DNA of 64,000 nt from an uncultured virus (IMG/VR IMGVR_UViG_3300042691_022988) (IMGVR_UViG_3300042691_022988); one strand, 5' to 3'; counted from the stretch's first letter, positions 56,637 to 62,147 are shown. Notes: generated from the sequence alone by a model not told the origin. A program made the numbers and translations.

Positions 56637-57170
56637 CACCATGCATGACCATGCCCGCTAGATACTGCAAGCACCCCGCCCGATGCCCTAGAAACCACAC
56701 GGCCTGAACGCCTGAAAACCCCGCCATTCCTGAGAACCATGCAAGGCTCGGAAATTCTGCTTGGGGTAACCTAGATTGAGTTGGCCTAATGTGCGGGCGT
56801 GCACGAGTGCTTTATGTGCTCTCTCTCCTGTCTCTTGGTGTGTGTGTGTTATTACATAGGGTGGATTGTGGGTTATTTGCCCGCGCATGGCCTGTCCTTT
56901 GCCTGCTGTTTGGCTGTCCTGTTTTACCCTGTCTGATGTCTCCTGATTGCTCACCTGTAGACCGCTTCCCAGGACGCATACGCTTTTTGTTGATTTTCGC
57001 TCTCAAACCCGCGCTGTGCCTGTCCTAGAGAACATCTGATGCTGTTTTTGGGTTTTGGCCTGTTTCTACCCCTGTTCACCCCCTCCCCTAGCTGTGAGAA
57101 ACGCCCATTTCTGACTATTTCCCGCCGGCCTGAATCCCTTGTCCTACGCGGCTTTCAGCACCATTGCTTA

Positions 57171-57178
57171 CAAAGATA
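57171..57178 (-). promoter_or_regulatory. -7 promoter element TATCTTTG (leftward)
   Basis: consensus match; no convincing ORF downstream. Confidence 0.4.
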
Positions 57179-57411
57179 GTCAATGTTTTCGCGGCTTCCA
57201 AGAAATAACGTAAAAAAGATTAAAATTCGTCGATGATAAATTATAATTCGTCGACACTTTTTGTCAGTTAGGCGAATTTATTGCCTTTGGCTGTAATTCA
57301 GTTATTGGATAGACGTGGCGCGGGTTTCAAAAAAGCAAATCTCTGAACACCGCATAAACACAGGTCGTTTAGAAGGTCTTTAAAACTTGATTTAGAACTT
57401 AGATATCCCCT

Positions 57412-57419
57412 TATCTTTG
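57412..57419 (+). promoter_or_regulatory. early promoter -7 element TATCTTTG
   Basis: consensus match, with TTG ~22 nt upstream, at the head of the plus-strand early region. Confidence 0.7.
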
Positions 57420-57424
57420 CCACC

Positions 57425-57810
57425 GTTCAACGGAACAACGGAGTGCTCAAATCACCCGCAATAGTAATACCTCGTGAGACGTGTGAAATTGAAAGATAGC
57501 TAGCAGTTCTGATTCCCTCTCTGCAACAATCAAAAGAGGGTGAGCGCTTAGGCAACGAAGCGACGGGAGTTCGCCCGCAAATAGCCGACAACATTCGGCA
57601 ACCTGTCAGTAGCAAGGTTAGGAGCTACAGGTTAAACGAACGAGAACCCTGCAAATAGCAGGGGACTACAAAAGCCGAGTCTTGGGACTATACGCGGTGA
57701 CCCCTAACGGGAGAGCGGATGAGTACAGCGGTAAACAAGTAGCACAGCTATGCGTATGTGACAACGTATGGCTGTGTGTATCAATACTACAGCGCAACGG
57801 CGCAAATTCA
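57425..57810 (+). ncRNA. large structured RNA, unclassified
   Basis: at least 8 hairpins in ~390 nt; no plus-strand ORF of 60 aa or more; G-U pairs favour the plus strand. Confidence 0.6.
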
Positions 57811-57820
57811 ATACAACTAT

Positions 57821-57898
57821 AGCAACGACGCATGGTGCGGCAAGCCTAGATGACTGAGGTCGCTAGTCTCGCAGGGGGTTCGAGTCCCCCCGTTGTTC
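57821..57898 (+). ncRNA. tRNA-like element without a canonical anticodon arm
   Basis: acceptor AGCAACG/CGTTGTT; T-arm GGGGG-TTCGAGT-CCCCC; mini D-arm CGCA-TGG-TGCG. Confidence 0.7.
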
Positions 57899-57919
57899 TA
57901 ACACTTAAAACACAACATC

Positions 57920-58399
57920 ATGAACATGACAAAAGGCACAGCCTTCGAAGTTGAAATCTTCAAGCAAATGAACTTATCACAGGAAGTAATTGAGCAGCAC
58001 ATATACGACTATGCGCCAATCATGAAACTGATACCGCTCACAACTGATGAAATCAGGGAACAGGGTAGAGACTACAACCCTAGAGAATGGGACAGGGTCA
58101 TTGACAGGATGCTCAACTACAACGGTATCAAGTGGTTCAAACGTGACAGGAACGAGAGTTCAAACGGCTACGATGAGTACTTCGCGGTATTCAGCAACAG
58201 CGCAGGCGTCAAGGTAATCAATCACGTGTCATACAGCGCGTCCATGACCAACACTCCGTGGGTCGAGGTTGCTATCGACGAGGACAACATCCTGCACTAC
58301 AACCGCCGCTCAATTCGCTTCAAGCGCAACGACGAGGCTAGGGACTACCTAGCAGAGCAAAGCAAGACAAGCGGTCGCATCTACACGACAATCTTCTGA
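57920..58399 (+). CDS. early hypothetical protein
   Basis: 159-aa ORF with A/C-rich leader. Confidence 0.7.
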   Translation: MNMTKGTAFEVEIFKQMNLSQEVIEQHIYDYAPIMKLIPLTTDEIREQGRDYNPREWDRVIDRMLNYNGIKWFKRDRNESSNGYDEYFAVFSNSAGVKVINHVSYSASMTNTPWVEVAIDEDNILHYNRRSIRFKRNDEARDYLAEQSKTSGRIYTTIF

Positions 58400-58451
58400 G
58401 GTTAACTGATGAGACTTCAATAGTCGAAACTGCCTACGGGCAGTCTTAACC
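58400..58451 (+). ncRNA. type I hammerhead ribozyme
   Basis: GGTTAA-CTGATGA-GACT(tcaat)AGTC-GAAA-CTGCC(tacg)GGCAG-TC-TTAACC. Confidence 0.92.
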
Positions 58452-58460
58452 AATAGCAAT

Positions 58461-58622
58461 ATGAAAGCAATCCAATCCCTCGCATCATTCGCAATGGTGC
58501 TGTTCTTTTTCCTGAGCACGATAGTCGCGCCAATGGCCGGCATTTGGTTCTTACTGCCGCTGACTATCCTGTGCCTGAACCTGAGCCTGAACCTATTCGT
58601 TCAAATTCATAATTCCAAGTAA
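58461..58622 (+). CDS. 53-aa hydrophobic membrane protein
   Basis: hand-translated MKAIQSLASFAMVLFFFLS... Confidence 0.55.
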   Translation: MKAIQSLASFAMVLFFFLSTIVAPMAGIWFLLPLTILCLNLSLNLFVQIHNSK

Positions 58623-58623
58623 C

Positions 58624-58815
58624 ATGACTGAGAAATTCTACTTCCGCAAACTAGGCGGTTGGCCGTTCGAAATGGAGGCCACAATCAACGATGGCCGCCA
58701 CCGAGCAAACTTCCTAGCGGCCATGAAGCGCAAGCGTTTCATACAGGTCGACGAGGCCGAGTACATCAAGGACAGCAGACTGCGCTCGATGTACGCATCA
58801 ATGTTCCACAAGTAA
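58624..58815 (+). CDS. early hypothetical protein
   Basis: ORF in operon. Confidence 0.6.
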   Translation: MTEKFYFRKLGGWPFEMEATINDGRHRANFLAAMKRKRFIQVDEAEYIKDSRLRSMYASMFHK

Positions 58816-58834
58816 TCAATAAACAGTAATCGAT

Positions 58835-59161
58835 ATGACAACACAAGAATTCATTCAGCAAATGGGCAAGATGCCTGTTGCAAACTACAACGACGGCACA
58901 ATTCACTTCGAGAATGGCCTCGAAATCAGCCACAGCGTTAAGCTAGCAGAATGGCAAGGCGACTTGCCTCTGCAAATGGTCGTGCGGGTATCTTTCCAAG
59001 GCGACTACGTTATGACGTGGGGCGCTGAGACTGACGAAGACAATCGACAGCTAGTGTATATGTGGCGCACGTTGAAAAGCCGCGCACAGGAGCGTTCAAA
59101 GGACATACAGCAGTACAACTCCCGTACAGGTTACGAACTGCTCATGAAGGGGCTGCAATAG
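58835..59161 (+). CDS. early hypothetical protein
   Basis: ORF in operon. Confidence 0.65.
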   Translation: MTTQEFIQQMGKMPVANYNDGTIHFENGLEISHSVKLAEWQGDLPLQMVVRVSFQGDYVMTWGAETDEDNRQLVYMWRTLKSRAQERSKDIQQYNSRTGYELLMKGLQ

Positions 59162-59219
59162 GTAAACTGATGAGGCTTCAATAGCCGAAACCACGGGGCT
59201 TGCCCCTGTGGTCTTTACC
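59161..59219 (+). ncRNA. type I hammerhead ribozyme
   Basis: GGTAAA-CTGATGA-GGCT(tcaat)AGCC-GAAA-CCACGGGG(cttg)CCCCTGTGG-TC-TTTACC. Confidence 0.92.
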
Positions 59220-59231
59220 AATACTAACGAT

Positions 59232-59516
59232 ATGAAAGCAACAATCGAAATCACGTCGACCTACGGGTTCGACCACTATTGGACACTAGTGTGTTCAACA
59301 CCTAAGACAACCAAGAGTTTCTACCTAGGACAGGACTGCAAATTCTGCGAACGAATACTAGGTATGAATACTGCGTGGGTTGCCCGCGAGATTGGCACGA
59401 ACAGGCTCGACACCGAGGCAGGCCGCGAGAAACTAGCCAAGTACATCTGCTCTACGCTAGGCATCAACGGACGTACAATGAAACAATATCAATCATGGTC
59501 GCTCTGCGCCCAATAA
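59232..59516 (+). CDS. early hypothetical protein
   Basis: start MKATIEIT downstream of the hammerhead. Confidence 0.65.
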   Translation: MKATIEITSTYGFDHYWTLVCSTPKTTKSFYLGQDCKFCERILGMNTAWVAREIGTNRLDTEAGREKLAKYICSTLGINGRTMKQYQSWSLCAQ

Positions 59517-59528
59517 ACCAACAACACC

Positions 59529-61127
59529 ATGTTACACAACGAGCATCTAAGCAAGGCGGATGAACTATACGAGGTTCGCCACGACAACAACGGCAACGCT
59601 ATCCATGTATTCATCAAGGACGGCGAGGCAATCATCTTTCAGAACCTGCATGACTTTGTCATGAGAATCTATTACGGCAAAGAGGTCGAGCGATTCTACC
59701 TCAGCGAAGAGGAACTGACCGATATGTACAATAGCAACGATTACGAGTATTACGAACTAAAATCAAAATACAGCCATGAGTAACATTGAAAGATTCGCAC
59801 GCATATGCAGTGCAACCAACGAGGGCATGAATGAGGGCTTCCTGTTCGAAGAGAGCCTCATGTACTTCATCGAGAAGGACGATGCCGAACGCTACGCCAT
59901 CGAGATTGGCTACGCTGACCTTGACGAGGCATACGACGACGATGCCTACTGCTACACGGAGTGGGATTGGGAAGACGAGGGTGAGTGGTACGAGAAGCAC
60001 GACGGAGTATGGTACGAATGTACCAACGACAGCAAGGTCGAAGTTAACATGAACAGCAACCTATTTTGGAAACAATAACATGAAGACAAAGCAAATCGTC
60101 GACGCGTACGTTAACGCTATCAACTCCGGAATTTGGGACTATCCCAATGGCCACGAGTTCAACAGCCCTGCTGAAATCTACAAGCTAGTGTGCGAGGGTA
60201 AAACAATCTACCACTTCGGACGCGAGGCCGTGATACACTACGGCTCGATGACGGGTGCGCTGATGGCATTCGGTGGCATCGGGTACACTTCGCAGTCAAC
60301 TCGCAAGGCAATTAGAACAGCAGTATTGTATGCTCAGAAAGTAAGTCAAACCAATAACAACTAAGCAATATGGACAACATCAAAATCACAGCAGACGGCT
60401 TCGTGTGGCTCATCGTCACGGACGTAGCAGAGAAACTTTACTACAGCAATGCCATGCAGGTTTACCGCCTGTACGATGACGGCACAGAGGCTCTCATCCT
60501 TGACTTCAGAGAACTGCAAGATGCACTAGCAGCAGGCAACGACATCGGGGTCGAGATTGCCCCGTTATGGAAACTTGTAGATTCACATCATTATCAAGCA
60601 CTAAACAAATACAATCAATGACAACACAACAGCAACACATCATCAACTCGCTTGTAGCTGAGTTCGAACGAATCAACAATCCAAGACCAAATGGCTTCGC
60701 TCGTATAGGCGAGGCACTTGACAAGTGTGACGAATGGTCAACACTATTCGCGCAGGTTACAGCATCCAATGCCCGATATACATACCTCCGCGAGCAGATG
60801 ATTGAAACCGATTACAATCGACTTGTCGAAGAGTGTAGACTCGCTGGCCTTAATCTTCGCATTACCACAAACGATGACTACATCTATATTGATATGCAAG
60901 GCACATATCAGACTGACCATGCGATTAAAATCCACTATTGGTTTGATACGAAAATGCACATGAGTGCCGCACGACAATCAATTAACGAAGTCAAGTCAAT
61001 ACGCCTTCATTCGTATCAAGCCACATCGAATTTCAGCGACAGCTTCGCGTCCATCGATAGCTTGTTTCTACATGAAACATTCTTCCGCAATTGGACTAAG
61101 CTAATTGAACTCTCACGCAATAATTAA
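59529..61127 (+). CDS. five early hypothetical genes (59529-59783, 59776-60078, 60080-60364, 60370-60621, 60618-61127)
   Basis: tightly packed co-oriented ORFs with A/C-rich leaders. Confidence 0.65.
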
Positions 61128-61302
61128 ACACAACACACAACAACGCAAATGAAACACTTCAGTATATACCGAAACATCCCTTTCTTAGACTGCAAGGGAT
61201 TAGGCTTCCATTACCAACGAATAGGCAACAGGTATTGGATAGACGTACCATTCATAAGTATCACATTTAAAATTATAAATAACAAATAAACACAACAACG
61301 AA

Positions 61303-61533
61303 ATGAAAATCTTATTCTTCGCGGCCATGATGGTCGCACAGCACTGCGCGGACACGCGCTTCAAAGAAATGCAAGACGACGGCACAATCGTGTACGAAGG
61401 GGAGGACGAGGACACAGGCAGAGCGATGTTCACTATCATTCTTCCTGACACGACCATCCACTACGCTTACGAGGCCGAGGTCAAGCAGTTCATCAAAACC
61501 GGAAATTTCACCTATAACGACCAATTACAATGA
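61303..61533 (+). CDS. small secreted or lipoprotein-like protein
   Basis: MKILFFAAMMVAQHC signal-like start. Confidence 0.55.
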   Translation: MKILFFAAMMVAQHCADTRFKEMQDDGTIVYEGEDEDTGRAMFTIILPDTTIHYAYEAEVKQFIKTGNFTYNDQLQ

Positions 61534-61715
61534 AGCACACACTTCGAATTGAGCCACTCCTTTGGCTCGCCTACATCGCTGCAATCATTACAGCAGCCGT
61601 ACTCATGAGTTCATGCAGTACCTCACGTCGAAACAACTACCAAGACCATCTCCGATCGACCCCGACTGAAAACTGGGTGCGCCACGATAATGGTGGATGT
61701 GGTTGGCACAACTAA
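61530..61715 (+). CDS. small lipoprotein
   Basis: hydrophobic segment ending in lipobox-like LMSSC. Confidence 0.6.
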   Translation: MKHTLRIEPLLWLAYIAAIITAAVLMSSCSTSRRNNYQDHLRSTPTENWVRHDNGGCGWHN

Positions 61716-61759
61716 CATGGCTATGGAGCAAGCAGGGGTTCGAGTCCCCTGCCATGTTC
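61714..61759 (+). ncRNA. tRNA-like acceptor/T-arm minihelix
   Basis: AACATGGC/GCCATGTT stem; AGGGG-TTCGAGT-CCCCT T-arm; 12-nt linker containing TGG. Confidence 0.65.
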
Positions 61760-61790
61760 TCTGCTCACAGCAGGCTCGTAATGCAACGAG

Positions 61791-61827
61791 AGGAGGGGAG
61801 CGGCAACGGCTGCACCCTCCTTATTTT
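61791..61827 (+). terminator. probable terminator
   Basis: AGGAGGG...CCCTCCT then TATTTT; new TACTTTTG element at 61863. Confidence 0.5.
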
Positions 61828-61892
61828 AACATCTCTTAACAAGTGTAATTTAAACTTTAATATACTTTTGTACCACTTAAAACAACAGCAAC

Positions 61893-62147
61893 ATGACGCA
61901 AGAGCAAATCAAACGCAGGCTTTTATTCATCATCGATGACGCGAGCCGTTTACTTCACCACCTAGAGTCAGGCAAGGACATGAGCGAATTCACGGGCTTT
62001 GCTGACGATGGGTATACACACCTGTCAAACATCCAAATCGCAGCAGACCTAGAGGACACGGAGTCTGACGTGTGGAAGAACGTACACTCCATGGATGCAG
62101 AAACCTTAGAACTTGTAACACTTAATTTTTCAAAAAGCAAAATATGA
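61893..62147 (+). CDS. early hypothetical protein
   Basis: ORF after the promoter element. Confidence 0.6.
   Translation: MTQEQIKRRLLFIIDDASRLLHHLESGKDMSEFTGFADDGYTHLSNIQIAADLEDTESDVWKNVHSMDAETLELVTLNFSKSKI

What the first reader, a model, noticed from the sequence alone, without database searches (positions are those of the whole stretch)
59161..59242. Hammerhead 2 covaries with hammerhead 1 and shares its downstream start-codon context
The core and stem II loop (UCAAU) are identical to copy 1. Compensatory changes occur in stem I (GGTTAA/TTAACC to GGTAAA/TTTACC) and stem II (GACT/AGTC to GGCT/AGCC), and stem III differs, which indicates selection on structure. Both copies continue as CCAATA..A.TATGAAAGCAA into otherwise unrelated genes (MKAI.., MKAT..). 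Inference: ribozyme plus translation start form a portable cassette joint that could also serve as homology for swapping early genes.
Basis: partly seen in the sequence, partly recalled or inferred. Interest (0 to 1): 0.72.

Follow-up and report, generated by a model that had tools for sequence, protein, structure and literature searches.

The report
Phage intercistronic hammerhead ribozyme, copy two
This is a genuine self-cutting hammerhead RNA lying between two small early genes of an uncultured freshwater phage, an already known kind of element, but in related phages the same slots hold a tRNA-like fold instead, which hints that its job is to cut the long early message.

Summary
Window 59161-59219 (+) is a complete type I hammerhead with predicted cleavage after C59213. 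Its twin lies at 58400-58451. A covariance model built from 84 other viral copies, without the window's, scores them 68.4 and 75.0 bits; nothing else in the window reaches E<=1. The subtype occurs in at least 122 viral stretches and in two cultured Pelagibacter phages, yet reaches no Rfam gathering score. Covariation is overwhelming: 99.7% of cells paired, 12 of 15 pairs changed on both sides.

The shared TATGAAAGCAA start context belongs to the downstream genes, because orthologs without any hammerhead keep it. Homology breakpoints do fall at the module's edges, but neighbouring junctions break too, and identical modules between unrelated flanks are rare (1 of 3,920 pairs).

The best reading is intercistronic self-cleavage of an early operon transcript, as proposed by Perreault et al. 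2011. New here: after the same orthologous genes, related phages carry a tRNA-like minihelix instead. Cleavage is untested; the RNA data were uninformative. The scan has noted phage hammerheads on other DNA 119 times. It is a new member of a known kind, of moderate interest.

The parts
59161..59219 (+). Hammerhead 2 (type I): stem I 59161-59166 with 59214-59219; core CUGAUGA 59167-59173; stem II and loop 59174-59186; GAAA 59187-59190; stem III hairpin 59191-59211; U16.1 at 59212; C17 at 59213, with predicted cleavage 3' of it
   Evidence: Sequence; minimum-free-energy fold; R2 68.4 bits, E 8.7e-17; RF03152 31.1 bits, below its threshold of 56.3
58400..58451 (+). Hammerhead 1 (type I), predicted cleavage after C58445
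   Evidence: Sequence; minimum-free-energy fold; R2 75.0 bits, E 1.1e-18
58835..59161 (+). Gene D (108 aa, no family). Its TAG stop (59159-59161) overlaps the first base of hammerhead 2
   Evidence: ORF list; no PHROG or Pfam match. Orthologs are followed by a hammerhead (G004) or a variant minihelix (L136/L141)
59220..59231 (+). 12-nt A/C-rich leader without a Shine-Dalgarno, between hammerhead 2 and the next start codon
   Evidence: Sequence; context statistics
59232..59516 (+). Gene E (94 aa, MKAT..., no family), downstream of hammerhead 2
   Evidence: The L147 ortholog (73% identity) has no hammerhead but the same start context
57920..58399 (+). Gene A (159 aa). Its TGA stop abuts hammerhead 1. 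In G003 and G004 the orthologous gene is followed by a tRNA-like minihelix instead
58461..58622 (+). Gene B (53 aa, hydrophobic, MKAI...), 9 nt downstream of hammerhead 1
   Evidence: Orthologs without any module in L133/L134 and L147. One X19 contig reaches it from a minihelix
61714..61758 (+). tRNA-like minihelix (acceptor-like stem, UGGAGCAAG-type linker, T-arm) that begins inside the TAA stop of ORF 61530-61715. It is the other module type found in this operon
   Evidence: (mascRNA 22.4 bits, E 0.75)
57821..57897 (+). Cloverleaf-like tRNA-like element just upstream of gene A, conserved in G002, G003 and G004
   Evidence: ARAGORN calls no tRNA

Best explanation
HH2 and its twin HH1 are active-type, type I hammerhead ribozymes. 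They are transcribed as part of a tightly packed, same-strand operon of small genes (about 57.9-61.7 kb) in a freshwater phage whose genes lack Shine-Dalgarno sites, probably a phage of Bacteroidota.

Inferred mechanism: each ribozyme folds as soon as it is transcribed and cuts after C17 (C58445, C59213). Because stem I is the open helix, the whole ribozyme body stays on the upstream message, just past that gene's stop codon. There it forms a structured 3' end with a 2',3'-cyclic phosphate. The downstream message takes only the 6-nt 3' strand of stem I. That short AU-rich helix should fall apart after cutting. The downstream message then starts with a 5'-OH and an unstructured A-rich leader of 15-19 nt before its AUG. 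The operon transcript is thus punctuated into separately stable and separately translatable pieces.

Shown: the fold, its conservation and covariation, its placement between stop and start codons, arrays on one strand in other phages, and replacement by a tRNA-like minihelix in the same slots of related phages. Inferred: cleavage in vivo, and its consequences for stability or translation.
For: (1) Canonical core and three helices. 130 of 131 pattern matches in the sequence held fold as full hammerheads. 99.7% of cells are paired, 12 of 15 pairs change on both sides, the covariation score is 0.745 versus 0.131 in shuffles (0 of 500 reach it), and slid controls give 30-40% paired.

(2) Placement. 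In 80 of 94 unique copies, a long upstream ORF ends between 5 nt before stem I and the core's own UGA. The next start lies 12-28 nt after stem I in 59 of 94. The leader is 44% A and 12% G, and 21 of 82 have a Shine-Dalgarno-like core.

(3) Stem I is fully paired over 6 bp in 92 of 94 copies and 5 of 6 in the other two. It is flanked by A on the 5' side in 94 of 94 and on the 3' side in 84 of 84.

(4) Arrays. 29 of 119 loci hold 2 or more copies, and none mixes strands. Of 34 intervals between copies, 21 hold one ORF, 6 hold two and 7 hold three.

(5) Same slot, different module. After gene A: a hammerhead in the window, a minihelix in G003 and G004. After gene D: a hammerhead in the window and G004, a variant minihelix in L136/L141. 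Early regions carry 2+2, 3+1, 3+1 and 5+0 tRNA-like elements plus hammerheads.

(6) No convincing terminator lies between the two copies.

(7) Precedent. Perreault et al. 2011 (PMC3088659, passages read) describe hammerheads flanking single genes in prophages, cleavage of about 2-kb polycistronic constructs in vitro, and one hammerhead 13 nt upstream of a start codon whose transcript 5' end maps within 3 nt of the cut. cyPhyRNA-seq detected in vivo cleavage of type II hammerheads near phage-like genes (PMC8782182, passages).
Against: No cleavage or transcript-end data exist for this phage. The only true RNA run laid covered 59416-60194, and only as contigs.

The G004 ortholog of HH2 has a U4C core and an altered loop. 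Perreault et al. say U4C considerably lowers activity in vitro.

Orthologs of the downstream genes B and E exist with no module at all. A 95%-complete relative (G003) has no hammerhead. So the ribozyme is dispensable at these junctions.

The leader is already unstructured in the uncut RNA, so cutting is not obviously needed for translation. No known tertiary contact between stem I and loop II has been identified, so the rate at cellular Mg2+ is unknown.
Confidence: 0.6

Rival explanations
1. Recombination joint. The conserved 25-nt core plus loop, repeated between small genes, mainly serves as short homology at which phages swap single-gene cassettes, as proposed for PeSL motifs in T4-type phages. 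Any RNA activity is secondary.
For: Breakpoints fall at the module's edges: 58397, 58399-58466 and 59223, and three unlike contigs join at 58399. Of 15 pairs sharing only the downstream side, 14 start within 8 nt of the 5' edge. Of 30 sharing only the upstream side, 19 end within 6 nt of the 3' edge and all by +29. Pairs with one flank shared and the other unrelated number 37-45, against 11-25 sharing both, depending on the filter. L059's hammerhead combines HH1's stem III with HH2's stems I and II. PeSL precedent: PMC2839356 and PMC4122927 (search listing and start of abstracts only).
Against: BLAST runs through any hammerhead because the core is conserved, so the exact crossover point cannot be placed. 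The pairs are not independent. Shared blocks also end about 170-700 nt away, at junctions where I found no copy of this hammerhead, in 27 of 30 pairs, so mosaicism at single-gene grain is general there. There are 73 distinct fingerprints among 90 copies, and only 1 of 3,920 doubly unrelated pairs shares a fingerprint. A purely DNA-level role does not explain compensatory changes in all three helices or the strict strand bias.
Confidence: 0.2
2. Translation-start enhancer. The ribozyme exists for the downstream gene, giving it a defined short leader. This would resemble the synthetic RiboJ insulator (recalled, not read) and the ribozymes reported upstream of ORFs in some RNA viruses.
For: The start codon lies 9 and 12 nt after stem I in the window, and 12-28 nt after it in 59 of 94 copies. 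Only 2 of 49 window genes have a Shine-Dalgarno-like core, so initiation should depend on unstructured A-rich leaders. In 15 family pairs the hammerhead travels with the downstream gene. A paper on RNA viruses using self-cleaving ribozymes for translation initiation exists (PMC13725137; listing and start of abstract only).
Against: In this clade the module tracks the upstream gene. A and D orthologs always have a hammerhead or a minihelix after them (3 of 3 loci for A; 4 of 4 loci with a complete C-terminus for D, of which L136 and L141 are identical there). B and E orthologs occur with none. In the family, 30 pairs keep upstream gene plus hammerhead against 15 the other way.
Confidence: 0.1
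3. Decaying or selfish passenger. The hammerheads are remnants spread by recombination and do nothing useful for the phage.
For: Presence varies among close relatives (2, 1, 1 and 0 copies). G004 has a U4C core variant. Orthologous junctions exist with no module.
Against: Near-perfect pairing is kept through many compensatory changes. The core is invariant in 88 of 88 aligned copies (partly imposed by the search pattern). Orientation is strictly with the genes. Placement between stop and start is precise. Stem I length and its flanking As are conserved.
Confidence: 0.07

Closest known systems
Clustered hammerhead ribozymes of prophages and phages (Perreault et al. 2011, PMC3088659; passages read)
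   Same: Canonical hammerhead core. Several copies flank single genes or short gene blocks whose identities vary. Processing of long phage transcripts is the proposed role. One example (HHphage of haloviruses HF1/HF2) lies 13 nt upstream of a start codon in an early operon.
   Different: This subtype has a fixed 6-bp open stem I flanked by A on both sides, and a 4-bp stem II with a 5-nt U...U loop. [quoted passage not shown] Alternation with tRNA-like elements was not among the passages I read.
Rfam RF03152, RAGATH-1 hammerhead (the only Rfam model that matches)
   Same: Type I topology, CUGAUGAG...CGAAAC core, about 5-bp stem I, GUC cleavage site (alignments).
   Different: That model has an upstream hairpin and a one-pair stem II. 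The window's copies have a normal 4-bp stem II and no matching upstream hairpin. Scores are 31.1 and 23.0 bits against a gathering score of 56.3.
Plant mitochondrial t-elements (Forner et al. 2007, PMC1920247; abstract read)
   Same: tRNA-like structures at mRNA 5' or 3' termini, proposed as signals for RNase Z and/or RNase P. This parallels the minihelices that occupy the hammerhead slots in this phage clade.
   Different: Organelle versus phage. Here the tRNA-like element and a self-cleaving ribozyme alternate at one orthologous junction. Cleavage of the phage elements is untested.
PeSL promoter-terminator motifs of T4-type phages (PMC2839356, PMC4122927; listing and start of abstracts only)
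   Same: Short conserved regulatory motifs repeated between small variable genes and found at the boundaries of insertions, deletions and replacements.
   Different: PeSLs are promoter plus stem-loop DNA/RNA signals, not ribozymes. Here a causal role in shuffling is not shown.
RiboJ-type synthetic ribozyme insulators (recalled from memory; no paper read)
   Same: A self-cleaving ribozyme placed just upstream of a translation start removes upstream RNA context.
   Different: RiboJ is engineered and leaves a hairpin on the downstream RNA. The natural type I copies leave only 6 nt on it.

Membership tests
Hammerhead ribozyme, type I | Conserved core C3-U4-G5-A6-N7-G8-A9 and G12-A13-A14 | tested here: met
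   CUGAUGA at 59167-59173 and GAAA at 59187-59190; the same in HH1; invariant in 88 of 88 aligned copies, partly forced by the search pattern
Hammerhead ribozyme, type I | A15.1-U16.1 pair followed by H17 at the cleavage site | tested here: met
   A59190 pairs with U59212, and C59213 is position 17. Family: GUC 82, GUA 11, CUC 1 of 94
Hammerhead ribozyme, type I | Three helices around the core, supported by covariation | tested here: met
   99.7% of cells paired; 12 of 15 pairs change on both sides; 0 of 500 shuffles reach the covariation score; slid controls 30-40% paired. It is the minimum-free-energy structure of both window copies
Hammerhead ribozyme, type I | Stem I is the open helix; stems II and III are closed by loops | tested here: met
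Hammerhead ribozyme, type I | Tertiary contact between stem I and loop II (or a pseudoknot) for fast cleavage | tested here: inconclusive
   No known contact was identified. Loop II keeps its 5-nt size and U...U ends but varies in sequence. Invariant As flank the 6-bp stem I and could be the partner, which is inference only
Hammerhead ribozyme, type I | Self-cleavage activity | not testable with these tools
Rfam hammerhead families (RF00163, RF00008, RF02275-RF02277, RF03152) | Score at or above the family's gathering threshold | tested here: not met
   0 matches at gathering thresholds in the window. Only RF03152 appears, at 31.1 and 23.0 bits against 56.3. No other hammerhead model appears at E<=10, even on a 101-nt input
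t-element-like tRNA mimic (for the minihelices that replace the hammerhead in relatives) | Acceptor-like stem stacked on a T-arm with a T-loop consensus | tested here: met
   Seven copies with perfect 6-7-bp acceptor stems, 5-7-bp T-stems, TTCGANT loops and compensatory differences between copies. 17 stretches in 13 viral contigs. Weak mascRNA hits
t-element-like tRNA mimic | Cleavage by RNase P and/or RNase Z | not testable with these tools
   No data. Note that the acceptor stem starts inside the stop codon, so an RNase P cut at its 5' end would remove the stop
PeSL-like shuffling motif | Repeated motif lying at the boundaries of gene replacements more often than other junctions do | tested here: inconclusive
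   Boundaries fall at module edges. But other junctions break too, and there was no clean control

The most novel reading that the evidence does not exclude
In this clade of freshwater phages, a self-cleaving hammerhead and a tRNA-like minihelix (a presumed substrate of the host's RNase P or RNase Z) are interchangeable occupants of one intercistronic slot. Both begin in the stop codon of the same orthologous gene and end a short leader before the next start codon. If so, phages punctuate early operon transcripts with functionally equivalent self-cut or host-cut modules. That would give a natural swap experiment that makes the long-open question of what phage and bacterial hammerheads are for directly testable. 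The module appears tied to the 3' end of the upstream gene rather than to the downstream start.
Probability: 0.4. Interest if true: 0.7.

Novelty: new member of a known kind. Interest (0 to 1): 0.4.

Why it matters
Hammerheads between phage genes have been known since 2011, but the 2019 review I read in passages (PMC6765202) still says their purpose needs to be defined. This locus adds three things.

- It documents a widespread viral type I subtype that Rfam 15 does not catch at its thresholds. In a cultured pelagiphage it lies inside a CDS call and is not annotated as a ribozyme.
- It gives quantitative evidence that these modules bound mostly single-gene cassettes and sit at mosaic breakpoints.
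- It offers a natural comparison: the same junctions carry a ribozyme in one phage and a tRNA-like processing signal in its relatives. This supports an RNA-processing role and suggests simple swap experiments.

Tried and rejected
**Identifying the genome**
- Megablast of 57000-61000 against named phages found nothing.
- The window's own assembly is not held. The nearest record, G001, lacks this region.

**Transcript evidence**
- One run search and one laying. X18 and X19 are probably DNA of related strains. X20, true RNA, gave three small contigs over 59416-60194 only.
- Nothing can be said about cleavage, and the parts without cover say nothing.

**Literature**
- Searches for hammerhead with tRNA-like, phage, RNase P and polycistronic (41 papers, none relevant among the 15 listed).
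- Self-cleaving ribozyme with Caudoviricetes and hammerhead gave 0 papers.
- RAGATH-1 gave nothing descriptive.
- So "not in print" rests on those searches only.

**Other checks**
- Perreault et al.'s supplementary files held as text do not contain the loop signature. The files may be cut.
- The MAFFT alignment of the seven minihelices (A2) was out of register, so I did no pair count on it.
- The minihelix as a phage attachment-site remnant: rejected, because the 5' acceptor strand is present and covaries with the 3' strand.
- The shared start context as part of the module: rejected.
- Hammerheads as a young mobile element: rejected.
- PHROGs and Pfam give no function for genes A-F.
- My first pair classification used a collinearity filter that undercounts pairs sharing both flanks. 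The looser count gives 25 instead of 11. Both are reported.

Full report
**What is there.** Window 59161-59219 (+) reads as follows:
- stem I 5' strand: GGTAAA
- core: CUGAUGA
- stem II with loop: GGCU-UCAAU-AGCC
- GAAA
- a 21-nt stem III hairpin
- U, then C59213
- stem I 3' strand: UUUACC

A second copy lies at 58400-58451, with its cut after C58445. The two differ by one compensatory pair in stem I, one in stem II, and a wholly different stem III. Both adopt the three-way junction as their minimum-free-energy fold (z -3.21 and -2.92).

**Rfam.** No family reaches its gathering score in the window. Only RF03152 (RAGATH-1 hammerhead) matches, at 31.1 and 23.0 bits against a threshold of 56.3. 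No classical hammerhead model appears at E<=10, even on a 101-nt input.

**A large family.**
- Of 131 instances in the sequence held, 130 parse as full hammerheads. The one miss, L080, later scored 61.2 bits.
- I aligned 88 of the 94 unique copies. The 6 dropped had a stem III over 30 nt or no flank.
- On that alignment the canonical structure has 99.7% of cells paired. Twelve of 15 pairs change on both sides. The three that never vary were fixed by my pattern or parser.
- The covariation score is 0.745 against 0.131 in shuffles (0 of 500 reach it). Slid controls give 30-40% paired.
- A model built from 84 copies, without the window's two, L059 or the mis-parsed L072, scores the window copies 75.0 and 68.4 bits (E about 1e-18 and 9e-17). 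It finds nothing else at E<=1.
- Two cultured Pelagibacter phages carry the identical 27-nt core.

**Anatomy of the subtype.**
- Stem I is 6 bp, fully paired in 92 of 94 copies, with 30 different sequences.
- It is flanked by A on the 5' side in 94 of 94 and on the 3' side in 84 of 84.
- Stem II is 4 bp with a 5-nt loop. In copies that my pattern did not select, the loop varies (UCAAU, UUAAU, UUAGU, UGAAU and others) but keeps its size and its U ends.
- Stem III ranges from 9 to 59 nt.
- The cleavage triplet is GUC in 82, GUA in 11 and CUC in 1 of 94.

**Context.**
- In 80 of 94 copies a long upstream ORF stops between 5 nt before stem I and the UGA inside CUGAUGA. Nine have no such ORF in range.
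- In 59 of 94 the next start lies 12-28 nt after stem I. A start was found for 82.
- The leader is 44% A and 12% G, against 31% and 20% for the loci. Only 21 of 82 have a Shine-Dalgarno-like core.
- The hammerhead carries built-in stop codons, so I make no enrichment claim for the stop position.
- 29 of 119 loci hold two or more copies, and none mixes strands. L023 has five within 1.7 kb.
- Of 34 distinct intervals between copies, 21 hold one ORF, 6 hold two and 7 hold three. The window's interval holds three.

**The phage.**
- It has a portal, a large terminase, an endolysin, a primase-helicase and several giant ORFs.
- The terminase's only relatives among named phages, at 24-26% identity, are phages of Flavobacteriia plus one unclassified record.
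- Only 2 of 49 genes have a Shine-Dalgarno-like core, and the 20 nt upstream of starts are 46% A.
- It is held by freshwater metagenome runs from 13 studies; some of these runs may be the source of this DNA.
- A Bacteroidota host is therefore likely but inferred.
- Genes from 57920 to 61715 are packed on one strand with no convincing terminator between them.

**The start-codon claim.** TATGAAAGCAA after both copies is unusual: it is the only one of 2,473 family pairs with unrelated downstream genes that shares 11 of 11 bases. But orthologs of gene B (L133/L134 at 100% identity, L147 at 92%) and of gene E (L147 at 73%) have no hammerhead. There, another gene's stop directly abuts the ATG, and they still begin T-ATG-AAA-GCA-A. 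So the context belongs to the genes. The CCAATA-type leader also recurs before window genes that have no hammerhead.

**The breakpoint claim: window and close relatives.**
- Window versus L124 and L125: homology stops at 58397.
- Window versus L125: homology stops at 59223.
- L059 shares only 58399-58466.
- In run X19, three contigs join at 58399 with unlike sequence before it.

**The breakpoint claim: the wider family.**
- With a collinearity filter, 30 pairs share only the upstream flank, 15 only the downstream flank and 11 both.
- With a looser count the figures are 20, 17 and 25.
- In 14 of 15 downstream-only pairs, homology starts within 8 nt of the 5' edge.
- In 19 of 30 upstream-only pairs, it ends within 6 nt of the 3' edge, in 4 at +13 or +14, and in 7 at +21 to +29.

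**The breakpoint claim: caveats.**
- The conserved core lets BLAST run through any hammerhead.
- The pairs are not independent.
- In 27 of 30 pairs the shared block also ends within the fetched flank, often about 290 nt away, so other junctions break too.
- Among 90 copies there are 73 fingerprints, and only 1 of 3,920 doubly unrelated pairs shares one. Nine share stem III, including L059 with HH1.
- The hammerheads sit at cassette boundaries. That they cause the swapping is not shown.

**The unexpected part: another module in the same slots.**

| Junction | What sits there in different phages |
|---|---|
| After gene A | Hammerhead in the window. In G003 and G004, right after the orthologous stop codon, an element of about 45 nt instead |
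| After gene D | Hammerhead in the window; a U4C hammerhead in G004; a variant minihelix in L136/L141 |
| Before gene B | Hammerhead in the window; nothing in L133/L134 and L147; in one X19 contig, the 3' half of a minihelix |

- The 45-nt element has a 6-7-bp acceptor-like stem, a UGG(A/U)GCAAG linker and a T-arm. An ATG follows 14-17 nt later.
- The window has such a minihelix at 61714-61758, starting inside a TAA stop. It also has a fuller cloverleaf-like element at 57821-57897.
- Early regions carry the following:

| Record | tRNA-like elements | Hammerheads |
|---|---|---|
| window | 2 | 2 |
| G002 | 3 | 1 |
| G004 | 3 | 1 |
| G003 | 5 | 0 |

- Two of G003's five are Rfam tRNA hits.
- A restrictive minihelix pattern finds 17 stretches in 13 viral contigs. 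In 13 of those loci there is no hammerhead within 1.5 kb.
- Earlier notes of this scan describe similar tRNA top-half mimics in other phages. I used them as leads only.

**Reading.** The simplest account is RNA punctuation of an early operon. This is what Perreault et al. 2011 proposed for prophage hammerheads, and what Forner et al. 2007 proposed for t-elements of plant mitochondria (abstract). The type I topology leaves the ribozyme on the upstream message and six bases on the downstream one. In this clade the module tracks the upstream gene more faithfully than the downstream one. That favours a role at the upstream 3' end, but this is inference.

Against a strict requirement: the U4C variant, junctions with no module, and a relative with no hammerhead. 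No transcript evidence could be obtained.

**Verdict.** This is a real, well-supported hammerhead. It is a new member of a known kind, in a subtype that Rfam misses. The alternation with tRNA-like modules is the part worth following.

Noticed in passing
window 61714-61758 (+): tRNA-like minihelix: acceptor-like stem, UGGAGCAAG-type linker, T-arm. It starts inside the TAA stop of ORF 61530-61715. Weak Rfam mascRNA hit (22.4 bits). The same family fills the hammerhead slots in relatives, and 17 stretches in 13 viral contigs match a restrictive pattern.
   Followed up: partly
window 57821-57897 (+): Cloverleaf-like tRNA-like element (7-bp acceptor stem, mini D-arm, long central arm, T-arm) just upstream of gene A, conserved in G002, G003 and G004. 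ARAGORN and Rfam's tRNA model do not call it.
   Followed up: partly
window 61790-61892 (+): A GC-rich hairpin followed by a T-run after the minihelix, then an AT-rich stretch before the ATG at 61893. This looks like an operon end and restart. Weak RT-9 hit (26.8 bits, E 0.65), probably chance.
   Followed up: no
L125 4393-4451 (= G004): The ortholog of hammerhead 2 has core CCGAUGA (U4C) and loop UCAGU but keeps all three helices (57.0 bits). Perreault et al. report that a U4C variant is weakened in vitro yet sufficient in vivo for a viroid.
   Followed up: partly
L149 1195-1261 (MT375528.1, Pelagibacter phage Jormungand): A full copy of this hammerhead subtype (56.4 bits, GUA site) in a cultured phage, lying inside the annotated CDS of gp49 and not annotated as a ribozyme. 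About 430 nt without an annotated gene follow it, before MarR-family regulator and integrase genes.
   Followed up: partly
all aligned copies (A1, A3); window 58399/58452 and 59160/59220: An unpaired A immediately flanks the 6-bp stem I on both sides in essentially every copy (94 of 94 and 84 of 84). The search pattern did not impose this. It may be the partner of loop II in a tertiary contact. Unexplained.
   Followed up: no
L130 7240-7364 and 6862-6957 (-) (= G003): Two matches to Rfam's tRNA model above threshold (37.4 and 33.5 bits), but 125 and 96 nt long, so they carry inserts. They lie in the same early region as the minihelices.
   Followed up: no
window 5477-29676 (-): Giant ORFs of 1624, 1228 (with a DarB-like antirestriction stretch), 2424 and 1452 aa beside the 798-aa portal and the 820-aa terminase. 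Most have no PHROG match.
   Followed up: no
L023 1255-2958: Five hammerheads on one strand within 1.7 kb, three of them nearly identical, each interval holding one or two small ORFs. This is the densest array seen.
   Followed up: partly
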